In this document: positions 24,865-27,245 of the stretch, one piece after another | Layout: the number at the start of each line of letters is the position of its first letter | How positions within the stretch are numbered: the stretch's first letter is position 1 | Assembly (NCBI GenBank): GCA_030425295.1 | Contig: JAUIAT010000011.1 | Location: 426 to 64,425, forward strand | DNA from: Gammaproteobacteria bacterium | Lineage (GTDB): Bacteria; Pseudomonadota; Gammaproteobacteria; JAUIAT01 | Direction of reading: 5' to 3' | DNA length: 64,000 nucleotides | Notes under the pieces: model-generated | Told to the model about the DNA's origin: nothing | Databases searched by the model: none | The model's input: only the letters and a program-made list of their open reading frames with translations | Translations under genes and position numbers: made by a program

Positions 24865-25009
24865 TATCTTAATTGCCCTGTTTTTTACAATATTATAGCA
24901 GAGTTTCTTAAGGTATCCTTATGGACTGTGCAGAATTATTCCCTACCCTCTGTAGGGTACGAAAATTTTAACTCTAACAAATTGAGTTAAAAAATATTTT
25001 TAAAATTAA

Positions 25010-25207
25010 CTAATATCAACCCGAGTTTCGAGTTTTATTTGTAGAAAATCAATTGCTTATGAATAATGTGTGCTAAGATTCGGTTGTCTCGCGGCTCTAA
25101 TCTGTCATTCCGTGGCTTGACCGCGGAATCTAGCTTCATGGATCCCGCGGTCAAGCCGCGGAATGACAGTTTTTTCATTTATTTACTACTGTTAAAGCAT
25201 ATAAGTT
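25010..25207. repeat. composite ~200-bp repeat (family B, copy 1) containing a family A palindromic pair
   Basis: Shares CCGAGTTTCGAGTTTTATTTGTAGAAAAT...AATGTGTGCTAAGATTCGG and TTTTCATTTATTTACTACTGTTAAAGCATATAAGTTG with 51198-51397. Confidence 0.75.
25103..25168. repeat. family A palindromic unit pair (66-bp near-perfect palindrome)
   Basis: TGTCATTCCGTGGCTTGACCGCGGAATC-tagcttcatg-GATCCCGCGGTCAAGCCGCGGAATGACA. Confidence 0.8.
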
Positions 25208-25260
25208 GATTATTTAAAACTCAAAACTGGGGTTAATATCATGTTATTTTAGCTAATACC

Positions 25261-25335
25261 ATGTCACCCCGCACTTGTTGCGGGGTCTGGAAGAAGCTCT
25301 CACCGGATCCCGCAACAAGTGTGGGATAGCAGGTT
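25261..25335 (+). repeat. family C hairpin repeat (copy 2)
   Basis: GTCACCCCGCACTTGTTGCGGGGTCTGG...GGATCCCGCAACAAGTGTGGGATAGCAGG. The downstream segment GCAACAAGTG is complementary to the loop of the first hairpin. Confidence 0.55.
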
Positions 25336-25859
25336 TCTAGCAAAAACTAAAGCTCATAAAATTAAAAAATCATACCCTACAGAGCCCTGGCTCCCTACAT
25401 AAATCCGACTTAATATTTGCTTAAGAATGCGCTGTTATTATAAATAATGTAGCGATGATAGTCCGTTATCATAAGCTTCCTTTCCAGGGTGGGTCTGTTT
25501 TAGAAGAAGGGCAGGCCCATCTTTATTATGTAGTGCCGGCAATCGACTTACAGCTGCAAATTCCCTGCTCGCTCCATACGGTTTTCTCTACAACCCTAAT
25601 AGTTATCAGGTGCTAAAGATAATATTTGATATTATCGTCCTTTCGTATTTCATATATATTTATGGTAGACTTGTCTCCTGTTTAAAAGAAAAGAAGTAAT
25701 TTCTGTCTGCTTTTCGACCAAAGTACGGTGTTTTTAAAGGACTATATTCCTGTTATTTTAAAATCCTAAGTTAAATGAGCGATAGCAGATAAAGGCTGAG
25801 CAGTTTCCCTATCTAAATAGGTGATATATATACGTTTTGCCTACAAAAATGAGGTACAT

Positions 25860-27245
25860 ATGCAAAGTAAATTAAAAAATTCCACGCCTACAAATTGTCG
25901 CGATGCACGCTTTAAACACTACACACTAGCCTGGACAATTTTTATAACCGCTTGTCTTTATTACTGTTTTGCTTATCTTCTTCGGGTCTATCCTAGTGTA
26001 ATGACTCAACATATCGAACAACATTTTCAGATTACAGCTTCTAGCTTTGGAATGCTGACAGCTTTTTATTACTTTGCTTATGCTCCAGTGCAGCTCCCGG
26101 TCGGGGTTTCAGTCGATAAAATTGGTCCACGTAGATCTCTTATTTTTGCAAGTATTTGTGCTACAACAGGTGCTTTTCTATTTGCAACTACCGATATTTT
26201 TGCCTTGGCTTTGGTTGGACGTTTTATGATCGGGCTAGGATCAGCTTTTGCTTATGTGACGGGCCTTAAACTTGCTTCTGTTTGGTTGCCAAAGAGATTT
26301 TTTGCAACAGCAACTGGCGCTGTTACCGGATTTGGTATGATTGCTGCAATCTTTACTGATATTTACCTAACACATGTTATTGAAGTTCATGGCGCTCATG
26401 ATGCAATTCGTTTCCCTGTCATGGTTGGGGTTGTTTTGATCGTATTAATTTTATTAGTTATTCGTGACCGCCCTGAACATGGCAATATGATTGAAGGTGT
26501 TGAGGATTCTGAGGCTCATGCGCTTTCATACCATCAGTTGTATCAGTACATAAGAATGATTGCAAAAAACCCACAGATGTGGATTATTGGTCTGGTGGGA
26601 GCCTTGCTCTACATGCCAGCATCAGTTTTTCTAGATGTTTGGGCTATTCCTTATCTTGAAACAGTGCATGAATTTACTGCAAATCAGGCAGCTGATGGTG
26701 TTTCTGTAATGCTTGCTGGGTGGATTATTTCAACGGTTTTTACAGGTTTTATTTCAGATAAGCTCGGTACCCGTAAAGCCCCTCTGCTTGTGGCAACTTT
26801 AGGAGCTACTATCGTTTCTACTACGATTATATTTGTGGCTGGGTTAAGTGTGAATACTGTATTTGTGCTATTGTTCTTGCTAGGGGTGTTTTGTGGGCCT
26901 CATCCGCTGTGCTTTACATTAAGTAAGGAAAATAACGATTCAACTATTTCTGGTACAGCCGTATCTTTCGCCAATTTTATGATTATGATGGGCGGTTTTG
27001 TATTTCAACCAGTCGTTGGTAAGTTGCTTGATCTTGGCTGGACCGGTGGTATGGCTAATGGTATTCGTATCTATTCACCTGAAGATTTCATGTGGGCCTT
27101 GGGAGTTTTGCCCGTTGGGTTGCTAATAGCCTTCCTTGCCACTTTAAAGATAAAAGAAACTTACGTGCATGCTGTCGTTGAGCATCATGATATGTTGGCT
27201 GAGGCTTTAGCAGCCGAAAAGGCTGAACAAGCTGCGGCTAAATAA
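25860..27245 (+). CDS. MFS transporter
   Basis: 12 TM helices and a GRFMIGLG-type MFS motif. Start chosen at MQSKLKN. Confidence 0.7.
   Translation: MQSKLKNSTPTNCRDARFKHYTLAWTIFITACLYYCFAYLLRVYPSVMTQHIEQHFQITASSFGMLTAFYYFAYAPVQLPVGVSVDKIGPRRSLIFASICATTGAFLFATTDIFALALVGRFMIGLGSAFAYVTGLKLASVWLPKRFFATATGAVTGFGMIAAIFTDIYLTHVIEVHGAHDAIRFPVMVGVVLIVLILLVIRDRPEHGNMIEGVEDSEAHALSYHQLYQYIRMIAKNPQMWIIGLVGALLYMPASVFLDVWAIPYLETVHEFTANQAADGVSVMLAGWIISTVFTGFISDKLGTRKAPLLVATLGATIVSTTIIFVAGLSVNTVFVLLFLLGVFCGPHPLCFTLSKENNDSTISGTAVSFANFMIMMGGFVFQPVVGKLLDLGWTGGMANGIRIYSPEDFMWALGVLPVGLLIAFLATLKIKETYVHAVVEHHDMLAEALAAEKAEQAAAK

What the first reader, a model, noticed from the sequence alone, without database searches (positions are those of the whole stretch)
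24865..25860. 1-kb repeat-dense non-coding region: composite family B repeat with a nested family A palindrome, family C hairpin repeat, local inverted repeats
The intergenic region between the coiled-coil protein gene and the MFS transporter gene has no convincing ORF. It is packed with repeats. A ~200-bp family B repeat (25010-25207) has a second copy at 51198-51397, and both copies embed a reversed-order pair of family A units (R-spacer-L, forming a 66-bp palindrome). Family C (25261-25335) has a second copy at 22058-22130. Short inverted repeats CCCTCTGTAGGGTA / TACCCTACAGAGCC (24941 and 25378) bracket the block. The motif CTTACAGCTGCAAAT (25543) is shared with 571 and 17013. This looks like a nest of miniature elements and could also encode sRNAs.
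Basis: seen in the sequence. Interest (0 to 1): 0.55.

Follow-up and report, generated by a model that had tools for sequence, protein, structure and literature searches.

The report
Nest of miniature mobile DNA repeats
This 1-kb gap between two genes is a pile-up of small, non-coding "selfish" DNA repeats: a miniature transposon with clear insertion scars, and hairpin repeats of the type first described in Rickettsia. It is a well-resolved example of a known kind of genome clutter, not a new system.

Summary
Window 24865-25859 is non-coding, and its left half (24948-25384) is made of nested repeats.

- **Family B is a genuine miniature transposon (MITE).** B1 (25019-25233) has 19-nt terminal inverted repeats and a perfect 8-bp target-site duplication, TAATATCA. 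B2 (51207-51398) has an 8/8 duplication and B3 (15299-15453) a 7/8 one.
- **Family A is a hairpin repeat (REP) of the CGTC-tagged class described by Di Nocera 2013.** The unit is TGTC-ATCCCGCGG-CTTGA-CCGCGGGAT-CCA. It corresponds to Rickettsia palindromic element RPE-4. The translated B1 core passes NCBIfam TIGR03777 (RPE4), and the identical core occurs in Rickettsia tamurae, Legionella, Kangiella and many MAGs.
- **Family A also sits in frame inside two genes.** These are an asparagine-synthase-like gene and bioF.
- **Family C is a sibling doublet** with an 8-bp stem and the same TGTC tag.
- **The bracketing 12-nt inverted repeat probably marks a third multi-copy element, D.** An independent k=31 assembly of the same genome breaks exactly 29 nt inside its left end.
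- **The CTTACAGCTGCAAAT match is only a 16-mer** and is probably not meaningful.

No Rfam family and no coding signal were found. An sRNA role is untested. Verdict: new members of known kinds, of modest interest.

The parts
24865..25859 (.). Intergenic region between the divergent genes 23437-24864 (-; 475 aa, no Pfam domain) and the MFS transporter gene 25860-27245 (+).
   Evidence: ORF list. Pfam scan of the flanking genes. No Pfam hit in any stop-free stretch scanned. No Rfam hit.
24948..25384 (.). Putative outer element D. It is bounded by the inverted repeat CTCTGTAGGGTA (24948-24959 and 25373-25384; 12/12 exact, about 17/21 when extended). A possible 7-bp flanking direct repeat TCCCTAC lies at 24940-24946 and 25392-25398. 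B1 and C1 sit inside D.
   Evidence: Exact inverted 12-mer, 0.1 expected. CCCTAC occurs 4 times here against 0.2 expected. Logan k=31 contigs end at 24977 and start at 25350, which places repeat boundaries at 24948 and 25379. With B1 and C1 removed, the 122-nt remainder folds end to end with z about -5. This part is tentative.
25011..25018 (.). Left copy of the 8-bp target-site duplication TAATATCA of B1.
   Evidence: Script check: 8/8 identity with 25234-25241. The background rate of 8/8 flanking identity is about 2e-5.
25019..25233 (+). B1, a 215-bp MITE. Terminal inverted repeats are ACCCGAGTTTCGAGTTTTA (25019-25037) and the reverse complement of ACCCCAGTTTTGAGTTTTA (25215-25233).
   Evidence: Terminal-repeat pattern search: 4 hits against 0.09 expected. 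Folds end to end as single-stranded DNA at -47.2 kcal/mol, z = -9.2. Alignment with B2 and B3.
25099..25172 (.). RPE-4/CGTC-type REP doublet at the centre of B1. Units are at 25103-25130 (-) and 25141-25168 (+), with the TGTC tags facing outward and the CCA tails inward.
   Evidence: (I14). Two reading frames of this stretch pass NCBIfam TIGR03777 RPE4 (33.2 and 27.7 bits; cutoff 23.95). The same tags-out arrangement is the commonest in other genomes.
25234..25241 (.). Right copy of the target-site duplication TAATATCA of B1.
25247..25346 (.). C1, a palindromic doublet of a second hairpin family. Units are TGTCACCCCGCACTTGTTGCGGGGTC at 25262-25287 (+) and a 3-mismatch copy at 25306-25331 (-).
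   Evidence: (I5, D8). Folds as one long hairpin, z = -7.6.
25486..25523 (+). Hairpin followed by a T-rich tail, resembling an intrinsic terminator, in the unique right half of the region. Its significance is unknown.
   Evidence: Consensus scan. The RNA fold z-score is only -1.7.
25547..25562 (+). The 16-mer CTTACAGCTGCAAATT, shared with 17015-17030. Probably a chance or partial match.
51207..51398 (+). B2, the second MITE copy. It is flanked by a perfect 8-bp duplication TTTTAATA (51199-51206 and 51399-51406). The right terminal repeat is missing, and the second A unit is degenerate.
15299..15453 (-). B3, a short 155-bp version of the MITE with a single A unit (15342-15369). It is flanked by TTTTATAA (15291-15298) and CTTTATAA (15454-15461). 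The stop codons of both convergent genes lie inside these duplicated 8-mers.
22057..22126 (.). C2, the second family C doublet, lying between the aminotransferase stop codon and the 5'-nucleotidase gene.
   Evidence: In the closest relative available (L185) the two genes are 1 nt apart.
5846..5995 (+). Family A cluster inserted in frame in the asparagine-synthase-like ORF 4446-6461. Here the tags face inward and the spacer is 88 nt.
   Evidence: (I8).
30659..30770 (+). Family A cluster inserted in frame in bioF (30158-31414). It adds about 40 residues that are absent from the nine homologues aligned (nine of the listed hits).
   Evidence: (I10).

Best explanation
The region is a landing zone where several non-autonomous, hairpin-forming mobile elements have inserted next to and into one another.

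**1. Family B is a MITE.** An unidentified transposase, acting in trans, recognises its 19-nt terminal inverted repeats and makes an 8-bp staggered cut in AT-rich targets (TAATATCA, TTTTAATA, TTTTATAA). Repair of that cut duplicates the target. Shown: the terminal repeats and the duplications at three sites. Inferred: the enzyme.

**2. The centre of B carries a doublet of family A hairpins.** These are REPs of the CGTC-tagged class, equivalent to Rickettsia palindromic element RPE-4. They have a TGTC tag, a 9-bp stem starting with AT, a 5-nt loop and a CCA tail. All three B copies carry the A unit at the same place, so it was already part of the MITE when the MITE transposed.

**3. Family C is a sibling REP doublet** with the same tag, an 8-bp stem and a 5-nt loop.

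**4. B1 and C1 lie inside a block bounded by a 12-nt inverted repeat.** This is probably a third multi-copy element, D.

How CGTC REPs themselves move is unknown. No dedicated transposase has been described for them. The elements are most likely selfish and close to neutral here. They stretch a divergent promoter region to about 1 kb, and any terminator, promoter or sRNA effect would be secondary. The right half (25400-25859) is unique sequence, presumably the promoter and leader of the MFS gene.
For: **Repeats and their significance.**

**B anatomy.**
- Alignment of the three copies.
- Terminal repeats.
- Flanking duplications 8/8, 8/8 and 7/8, against background rates of 2-6e-5 for 8/8 and about 6e-4 for 7/8 or better.
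- At B3 each convergent gene keeps its stop codon inside one copy of the duplicated 8-mer.
- End-to-end hairpin folds: z = -9.2 for B1 and -7.6 for C1.

**A is RPE-4/CGTC class.**
- The unit matches the published definition of CGTC REPs: a tag that may read TGTC, a 9-bp stem beginning AT, a 5-nt loop and a CCA tail. CGTC-4 is RPE-4 (PMC3733652).
- The ATGAC motif of RPE-4/6/7 is present (PMC3767692).
- The translated B1 core passes TIGR03777.
- A Rickettsia tamurae protein that carries the identical hairpin pair scores 61.8 bits on the same model.
- The exact 23-nt core is found in more than 111 loci of diverse genomes. There only about 32 nt is conserved, and the tags-out doublet is the commonest arrangement.

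**Evidence of insertion.**
- The bioF insert is absent from the nine homologues aligned.
- The C2 site is empty in relative L185.

**Further copies in the same genome.** Logan contigs (k = 31; PMC12424806) break at window positions 24977, 25350, 51367, 15369 and 15355. These positions imply repeat edges at 24948 and 25379. They also imply a 30-mer ending at 51396 that B1 does not share, and a shared 45-mer at 15340-15384.

**No coding or known RNA signal.**
Against: - No transposase was found among the window ORFs scanned, so the mobilising enzyme for B is unknown.
- B2 lacks the right terminal repeat yet has a perfect duplication. A simple two-ended cut-and-paste model does not predict this.
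- B, C and D were not found in any other genome sampled. Copy numbers outside the window rest on indirect evidence from assembly break points.
- Element D has only one directly visible copy, and its 7-bp flanking repeat is offset by 1 nt on one side and 7 nt on the other.
- No closely related genome was available to show an empty site for B1 itself.
Confidence: 0.8

Rival explanations
1. The repeats are functional RNA or regulatory modules (sRNA genes, terminators, attenuators or operator sites) kept by selection, and their repetition reflects function rather than mobility.
For: - MITE-derived sRNAs are documented in Coxiella: CbsR3, CbsR13 and CbsR16 arise from QMITE1 and QMITE2 (PMC5896051).
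- The long B1 hairpin is followed by T6 on the + strand.
- Promoter-like hexamers lie at both B1 borders, and there is a terminator-like hairpin at 25486-25523.
- An A-like stem forms the hairpin just after the MFS stop codon at 27250-27275.
Against: - No Rfam family matches.
- The target-site duplications show that B arrived by transposition.
- B copies sit in three unrelated contexts: divergent, tandem and convergent gene pairs.
- The promoter and terminator matches are at consensus level only: 10 promoter-like sites against 4.7 expected, and 2 terminator-like sites against 0.8.
- This reading is compatible with a mobile origin. It is an add-on rather than a replacement.
Confidence: 0.12
2. 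The repeat block is an artefact of metagenome assembly (a chimeric join at repeats), or the result of segmental duplication or recombination rather than insertion of mobile elements.
For: - The sequence comes from a metagenome-type assembly, a 64,705-bp NCBI contig.
- An independent short-read assembly of the same genome fragments exactly in this region.
Against: - Perfect 8-bp duplications on both sides of B1 and B2 would not survive a chimeric join.
- The independent contigs are 100% identical to the window up to the repeat edges.
- The fragmentation is what multi-copy repeats are expected to produce in a k=31 graph.
- Segmental duplication does not create terminal inverted repeats plus target duplications at three different targets.
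Confidence: 0.04
3. The region is the remnant of a degraded protein-coding gene, and the short ORFs are its fragments.
For: The intergenic gap is unusually long (about 1 kb) for this compact genome. Stop-free stretches of up to 74 aa exist.
Against: - None of the stop-free stretches scanned has a Pfam hit.
- The only family match is the RPE4 translation of the palindrome itself.
- A search of the protein database with the B1 ORF found nothing.
- About 45% of the region is accounted for by identified repeats.
Confidence: 0.02

Closest known systems
CGTC-tagged REPs, family 4 = Rickettsia palindromic element RPE-4 (Di Nocera et al. 2013, PMC3733652; Ogata et al. 2002, as cited there)
   Same: - Family A has the defining anatomy: a TGTC variant of the CGTC tag, a 9-bp stem beginning AT, a 5-nt loop and a CCA tail.
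- It forms inverted doublets and carries the ATGAC motif.
- It is found both between genes and in frame inside genes.
- The identical hairpin occurs in a Rickettsia tamurae protein that matches TIGR03777, and the translated B1 core also passes that model.
   Different: - The host is an uncultured low-GC gammaproteobacterium, not Rickettsia. Its UvrB is 71-76% identical to proteins from Gammaproteobacteria, Coxiellaceae, Aquicella and Legionellaceae records.
- One doublet is embedded in a transposon-like carrier, family B.
- Family C, with an 8-bp stem and loop CTTGT, looks like a different CGTC subfamily. It was not found elsewhere.
QMITE2 of Coxiella burnetii (Wachter et al. 2018, PMC5896051)
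   Same: Both are MITEs of about 150-190 bp with terminal inverted repeats, target duplications of variable sequence (7-11 nt in QMITE2), and a REP palindrome at the centre. Both exist in full-size and small versions and sit mostly in intergenic regions and at gene 3' ends, sometimes overlapping stop codons. B1, B2 and B3 show each of these traits.
   Different: - The REP in QMITE2 is GTAG-tagged and serves as a target for IS1111. The REP in B is of the TGTC/CGTC (RPE-4) type.
- The small QMITE2 versions lack terminal repeats and duplications, whereas the short B3 keeps both.
- Sequence similarity between the two could not be tested, because no QMITE2 sequence was available to the tools.
REPINs mobilised by RAYT transposases (GTAG REPs)
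   Same: Both are inverted doublets of short GC-rich hairpins that can fold into one long hairpin. Both are multi-copy and largely intergenic.
   Different: The A and C units carry TGTC, not GTAG. No RAYT or other transposase was seen among the window ORFs scanned. [quoted passage not shown]
Mosaic intergenic repeat regions (E. coli BIMEs; Neisseria dRS3/Correia mosaics)
   Same: Several unrelated small repeat families are interleaved in a single intergenic region. Di Nocera et al. note that Neisseria CGTC-1 elements cluster in large mosaic intergenic regions, interleaved with other repeat families.
   Different: Here the nesting order can be read from the target duplications: A lies within B, and B and C lie within a putative D. 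The component families differ in sequence from those systems.

Membership tests
CGTC-tagged REP / RPE-4 | An unpaired terminal tag CGTC (TGTC or CCTC accepted) at one end of the hairpin | tested here: met
   All clear A units read TGTCAT... on the tagged side. The definition is in PMC3733652.
CGTC-tagged REP / RPE-4 | A 9-bp stem starting with A-T, a 5-nt loop and a short CCA tail (families 3 and 4) | tested here: met
   The unit is ATCCCGCGG / CTTGA / CCGCGGGAT followed by CCA. Across 175 units in other genomes the conserved block is cTG-GATCCCGCGGTCAAGCCGCGGGATGACa.
CGTC-tagged REP / RPE-4 | Units commonly paired in inverted orientation (dimers) | tested here: met
   Four inverted A pairs in the window: three clear ones, plus the B2 pair whose second unit is degenerate. 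In other genomes there are 26 tags-out and 9 tags-in pairs within 300 nt.
CGTC-tagged REP / RPE-4 | The translation matches the curated RPE4 domain model (NCBIfam TIGR03777) at or above its cutoff | tested here: met
   B1 core frames score 33.2 and 27.7 bits against a cutoff of 23.95. The in-gene clusters read in other frames score only 14-16 bits. The Rickettsia tamurae reference protein scores 61.8 bits.
CGTC-tagged REP / RPE-4 | In-frame insertion into otherwise conserved protein genes | tested here: met
   The asnB-like and bioF ORFs read through the clusters. The bioF insert is absent from the nine homologues aligned. Of the 187 units counted (window and other genomes together), 31 lie in open frames of 250 aa or more.
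MITE (non-autonomous DNA transposon) | Terminal inverted repeats | tested here: met
   B1 has a 19-nt repeat, 17/19 complementary between its two ends. B3 ends are recognisable but diverged. The right end of B2 is absent.
MITE (non-autonomous DNA transposon) | Target-site duplications of fixed length and variable sequence | tested here: met
   8 bp in all three copies: TAATATCA 8/8, TTTTAATA 8/8, and YTTTATAA 7/8. The background rate for 8/8 is 2-6e-5.
MITE (non-autonomous DNA transposon) | Small, non-coding and present in several copies | tested here: met
   The copies are 155-215 bp, with three in 64 kb. The only ORF match is the RPE4 translation. Assembly break points imply more copies elsewhere in the genome.
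MITE (non-autonomous DNA transposon) | A cognate autonomous IS with the same terminal repeats in the genome | not testable with these tools
No transposase was found among the window ORFs scanned.
REPIN / RAYT system | A GTAG tag on the REP and an associated RAYT (IS200/IS605-like) gene | tested here: not met
   The A and C units carry TGTC. No Y1 transposase was found among the ORFs scanned. Whether the genome has one elsewhere is not testable. The D ends do contain GTAGGG, but they do not have a typical REP stem.
Known bacterial sRNA or cis-regulatory RNA (Rfam) | A match to a curated covariance model at its gathering score | tested here: not met
   No match in 24800-25900 even at E up to 5. 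The three listed matches are far below their thresholds: mir-188, snoR12 and Ysr197.
QMITE2 (Coxiella burnetii) | Sequence homology to CbsR16/QMITE2, with a central GTAG REP | not tested
   No QMITE2 sequence was available. The central REP here is TGTC-tagged rather than GTAG-tagged, so membership is unlikely. The resemblance is architectural only.

The most novel reading that the evidence does not exclude
The 32-nt RPE-4/CGTC-4 hairpin is base-for-base identical in Rickettsia, Legionella, Kangiella, many unrelated MAGs and this uncultured gammaproteobacterium. It was absent from the 91 kb sampled from the closest available relatives. No transposase is known for this REP class. Family B shows the hairpin doublet travelling as cargo inside a transposon with classic terminal repeats and an 8-bp target duplication. 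Composite MITEs of this kind could therefore be a real vehicle by which CGTC/RPE-type hairpins are moved within genomes, and possibly seeded between them. That would give the first concrete handle on how RPE-like elements, including the protein-invading ones, spread.
Probability: 0.15. Interest if true: 0.6.

Novelty: new member of a known kind. Interest (0 to 1): 0.3.

Why it matters
On its own the region is ordinary genome clutter, but three points have some value.

- **RPE-4-type hairpins outside Rickettsia.** They are best known for invading Rickettsia proteins. Here they are active-looking residents of a distant, uncultured gammaproteobacterium, and they sit in frame in bioF and an asparagine-synthase-like gene. 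Together with the wide distribution of the identical core, this argues for spread across bacterial classes.
- **A REP doublet built into a MITE.** Family B has unambiguous target duplications. This is a clean example for the open question of how CGTC REPs, which have no known transposase, move.
- **A practical warning for annotation.** These repeats break short-read assemblies at predictable positions and yield spurious small ORFs. Annotators of MAGs should mask them.

Tried and rejected
- **Synteny and empty-site tests for B1.** A metagenome scan with the neighbouring 5'-nucleotidase gave 69 loci, but the best was only 67-68% identical and none shared two or more neighbouring genes. Contigs of the closest UvrB homologues (72-76% identity) do not conserve the hyp475-MFS junction. 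Only the C2 site could be compared.
- **Finding B, C or D elsewhere.** There was no match in 1.5 Mb of fetched loci and none in PLSDB plasmids. The A and C cores are absent from viral contigs. A protein-database search with the B1-encoded 47-aa ORF returned nothing.
- **Literature search for the hairpin sequence.** No hits.
- **Hidden gene.** Rejected.
- **Known RNA family.** Rejected.
- **The 25547 motif as a member of the 47-nt repeat at 546 and 16994.** Rejected after alignment.
- **Presence/absence polymorphism as the cause of the contig break at 24977.** Rejected. An out-branch at the element border would end the contig at about 24948, not 29 nt inside the element (my reasoning from k = 31).
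- **The exact NCBI record of the window.** It could not be retrieved.
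Full report
**Context.** The window has about 38% G+C. It comes from an uncultured bacterium. Its proteins are on record in an NCBI contig of 64,705 bp and in Logan assemblies of run ERR3428545. UvrB is at best 76% identical to anything in the protein collection. The named hits at 71-74% identity are Gammaproteobacteria MAGs, a Coxiellaceae bacterium, Aquicella siphonis and a Legionellaceae bacterium. 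The organism is therefore a deep-branching gammaproteobacterium, possibly near Legionellales or Coxiellales. The finding covers the gap between a 475-aa gene with no Pfam domain (23437-24864, minus strand) and an MFS transporter gene. The MFS gene starts at ATG 25860, preceded by GAGG, so the gap is 24865-25859.

**Checking the observation.**
- Family B: 25020-25208 matches 51208-51396 at 81%. A third, reverse-oriented partial copy lies near 15340-15451 (D4, I1, I2).
- Family A: the 28-nt unit GATCCCGCGGTCAAGCCGCGGGATGACA has eight matches in the window at up to 3 mismatches, against none in 100 shuffles. Two of them face each other in B1, with arms 25099-25130 and 25141-25172 at 91% complementarity (I14).
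- Family C: 25262-25327 matches 22057-22122 at 76%. Four units are found and none are expected.
- The bracketing inverted repeat CTCTGTAGGGTA is exact at 24948-24959 and 25373-25384, with 0.1 expected.
- The motif CTTACAGCTGCAAAT is at 25547, 17015 and 567. The 25547 copy shares only a 16-mer, not the 47-nt repeat that links the other two. I treat it as probably meaningless.
- The region has no coding signal. The longest stop-free stretch is 74 aa, none of the stretches scanned hits Pfam, and no Rfam model matches even at permissive thresholds.

**Family B is a MITE.**
- The three aligned copies share a terminal motif. A search with ACCCSAGTTTYGAGTTTTA finds it at both ends of B1, at the left end of B2 and at one end of B3, four hits against 0.09 expected.
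- With those ends fixed, the 8 bases outside each element are direct repeats. B1 (25019-25233) has TAATATCA on both sides. B2 (51207-51398) has TTTTAATA on both sides. B3 (15299-15453) has TTTTATAA and CTTTATAA.
- For arbitrary segments of the same lengths in this window, 8/8 flanking identity occurs at 2-6e-5 and 7/8 or better at about 6e-4. These are therefore three independent insertion scars.
- At B3 the scar is especially clear. The stop codon of the CLC gene lies in the left 8-mer and that of the convergent sugar-transporter gene lies in the right 8-mer. The two genes must have abutted before the insertion, and the duplication preserved both ends.
- B1 folds end to end as single-stranded DNA (-47.2 kcal/mol, z = -9.2).
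- B3 is a short version that lacks the second A unit and about 50 nt next to it.
- B2 has lost, or never had, the right terminal repeat, yet it has a perfect duplication. I cannot explain this. Use of a weakly similar internal sequence as an alternative end is only a guess.

**Family A is the RPE-4 / CGTC-type REP.**
- The unit reads TGTC-ATCCCGCGG-CTTGA-CCGCGGGAT-CCA. Di Nocera et al. (PMC3733652) define CGTC-tagged REPs by a terminal CGTC that is often TGTC, stems of 8 or 9 bp beginning with A-T, loops of 4 or 5 nt, a CCA tail, and frequent inverted dimers. They equate CGTC-4 with RPE-4 of Rickettsia conorii. Family A fits each point.
These included Rickettsia tamurae, Legionella massiliensis, Kangiella aquimarina, Coxiellaceae and Rickettsiales MAGs, and many others.
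- In R. tamurae the doublet lies inside a 653-aa peptidase-like ORF that scores 61.8 bits on NCBIfam TIGR03777, the RPE4 domain.
- Two frames of the B1 core pass the same model at 33.2 and 27.7 bits, against a cutoff of 23.95.
- Across 175 units in other genomes, only about 32 nt is conserved and the flanks are not. The tags-outward doublet seen in B1 is the commonest arrangement, 26 of 50 neighbouring pairs.
- So the palindrome is an element in its own right, and the B arms are specific to this genome.
- All three B copies carry the A unit at the same internal position. It was therefore already part of B when B transposed.

**Family C.** The unit is TGTC-ACCCCGCA-CTTGT-TGCGGGGT-CTGG. It has the same tag, an 8-bp stem and a 5-nt loop, and it is again arranged as a tags-outward doublet that folds into one hairpin (z = -7.6). 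It looks like another CGTC subfamily. I found it only in this genome. C2 sits between an aminotransferase gene and a 5'-nucleotidase gene. In the closest relative I could fetch (L185; UvrB 76% and 5'-nucleotidase 75% identical) those two genes are 1 nt apart, against 113 nt here. That is consistent with insertion, though the relative is distant.

**The outer inverted repeat (family D).**
- CCCTAC or GTAGGG occurs four times in the region against 0.2 expected. No other copy of the inverted repeat is visible in the window.
- Indirect evidence comes from the independent Logan assembly of the same genome, which is built on a k=31 de Bruijn graph (PMC12424806). There, a contig that enters a repeat from unique sequence should stop 29 nt inside it.
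- The contig that carries the 475-aa gene ends at window 24977, which puts a repeat edge at 24948, the first base of CTCTGTAGGGTA. The contig that carries the MFS gene starts at 25350, which puts an edge at 25379, 5 nt short of the other arm's end.
- The same rule gives sensible edges at known repeats. It places one at 30656 for an A unit and one at 11544 for the 47-nt family.
- It also implies a 30-mer ending at 51396 that B1 does not share, and a shared 45-mer at 15340-15384, made of the A unit plus 15 nt of B arm. These last two imply B-like copies elsewhere in the genome.
- With B1 plus one duplication copy and C1 removed, the remaining 122 nt of D folds with its ends paired, z about -5.
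- I therefore regard D as a probable third multi-copy element that hosts B1 and C1. This is an inference, and its possible 7-bp flanking repeat (TCCCTAC) is not cleanly positioned.

**The right half (25400-25859).** This sequence is unique, with no repeats, no homologues in any fetched locus, and no Rfam or Pfam signal. A hairpin with a T-rich tail at 25486-25523 matches a terminator consensus but is not unusually stable (z = -1.7). This half is most simply the promoter and leader of the MFS gene.

**Mechanism.**
- Shown: B inserted at three AT-rich sites and made 8-bp duplications, which is the signature of a transposase that makes staggered cuts and recognises terminal inverted repeats.
- Inferred: the enzyme is supplied in trans by an IS elsewhere in the genome. 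None was found among the window ORFs scanned.
- For A and C the mode of spread is unknown. [quoted passage not shown]
- Functional effects such as termination after the B1 hairpin and its T6 run, hybrid promoters at B1 borders, or sRNAs like the QMITE-derived ones in Coxiella are possible but untested.

**Comparison with known systems and novelty.**
- A is a member of the RPE-4/CGTC-4 class, and all testable defining features are met.
- B resembles Coxiella QMITE2 in architecture: terminal repeats, variable duplications, a central REP, and long and short versions. Its REP is of the other superfamily, and sequence homology could not be tested.
- The region as a whole resembles the mosaic intergenic repeat clusters described for Neisseria and E. 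coli.
- Nothing here is a new kind of system. B, C and D are new members.
- The more interesting side points are the presence of RPE-4 hairpins in frame in the bioF and asnB-like genes of a non-rickettsial bacterium and the capture of such a doublet by a MITE with clean insertion scars.

**Limits.**
- No close relative and no whole genome were available. Copy numbers of B, C and D beyond the window are therefore indirect.
- The empty-site test for B1 could not be done.
- The 91 kb from the nearest relatives that lack A, B and C is a small sample from organisms that are not very close.

Noticed in passing
window 5846-5995 and 30659-30770: Clusters of family A (RPE-4-type) hairpins lie in frame inside an asparagine-synthase-like gene (4446-6461) and inside bioF (30158-31414). 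The bioF insert of about 40 residues is missing from the nine homologues aligned. This is RPE-style invasion of proteins outside Rickettsia.
   Followed up: partly
window 15291-15461: The short MITE copy B3 sits between convergent CLC and sugar-transporter genes. Each gene's stop codon lies in one copy of the duplicated 8-mer, so the two genes must have abutted with no spacer before the insertion.
   Followed up: yes
window 51207-51406: B2 has a perfect 8-bp flanking duplication (TTTTAATA) but no right terminal inverted repeat. It ends at ...AAGTTGCC. This is unexplained. It may reflect use of an alternative internal end, or a later deletion.
   Followed up: partly
window 546-592, 16994-17040, 13484-13517, 11502-11542 (reverse): A separate repeat family of about 40-47 nt, TAGGGTCTGTTGACAATT..TTGCAGCTGCAAAT.., has four copies. 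Two are just upstream of genes and contain promoter-like hexamers. A Logan contig starts at window 11515, which fits a repeat edge near 11544, so the family is probably multi-copy in the genome.
   Followed up: partly
window 27250-27275: The hairpin ATCCCGCGA-ATTTA-TCGCGGGAT lies immediately after the MFS stop codon. It has the same stem as family A but a different loop and no TGTC tag, and it sits in a terminator-like position.
   Followed up: no
window 2000-2077 (minus strand): A SAM-II (SAM_alpha, RF00521) riboswitch match at 39.5 bits (gathering score 36) lies directly upstream of the 383-aa ORF 857-2008, which has no Pfam domain. This family is unusual for a gammaproteobacterium-like genome.
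   Followed up: no
window 17079-18370: Two adjacent ORFs (17102-17710 and 17796-18752; no Pfam domain) are built from diverged repeats with a period of about 183-192 nt (D1-D3). They look like a repeat protein of unknown function, possibly of effector type.
   Followed up: no
window 11574-13364: MbnB/TglH/ChrH-family (DUF692) and DUF2063/HvfC-like genes lie next to a 56-aa ORF called in the Logan contig (L189 1680-1850). This is a possible RiPP-type or heavy-metal-binding peptide cluster.
   Followed up: no
window 35170-36720: A 516-aa protein has an Ntox11 (novel toxin 11) domain hit, E = 2.6e-9.
   Followed up: no
window 22051-22163 versus L185 396-398: In the closest relative found, the aminotransferase stop codon and the 5'-nucleotidase start codon are 1 nt apart. 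In the window they are 113 nt apart, with the C2 doublet in between.
   Followed up: yes
loci L002-L112: The exact 23-nt family A core occurs in very diverse genomes: Rickettsia, Legionella, Kangiella, and MAGs labelled Sedimenticolaceae, Parvibaculaceae, Dongia and 'Deltaproteobacteria'. About 17% of all 187 units counted (window included) lie in long open frames. It was not found in viral contigs or PLSDB plasmids.
   Followed up: partly
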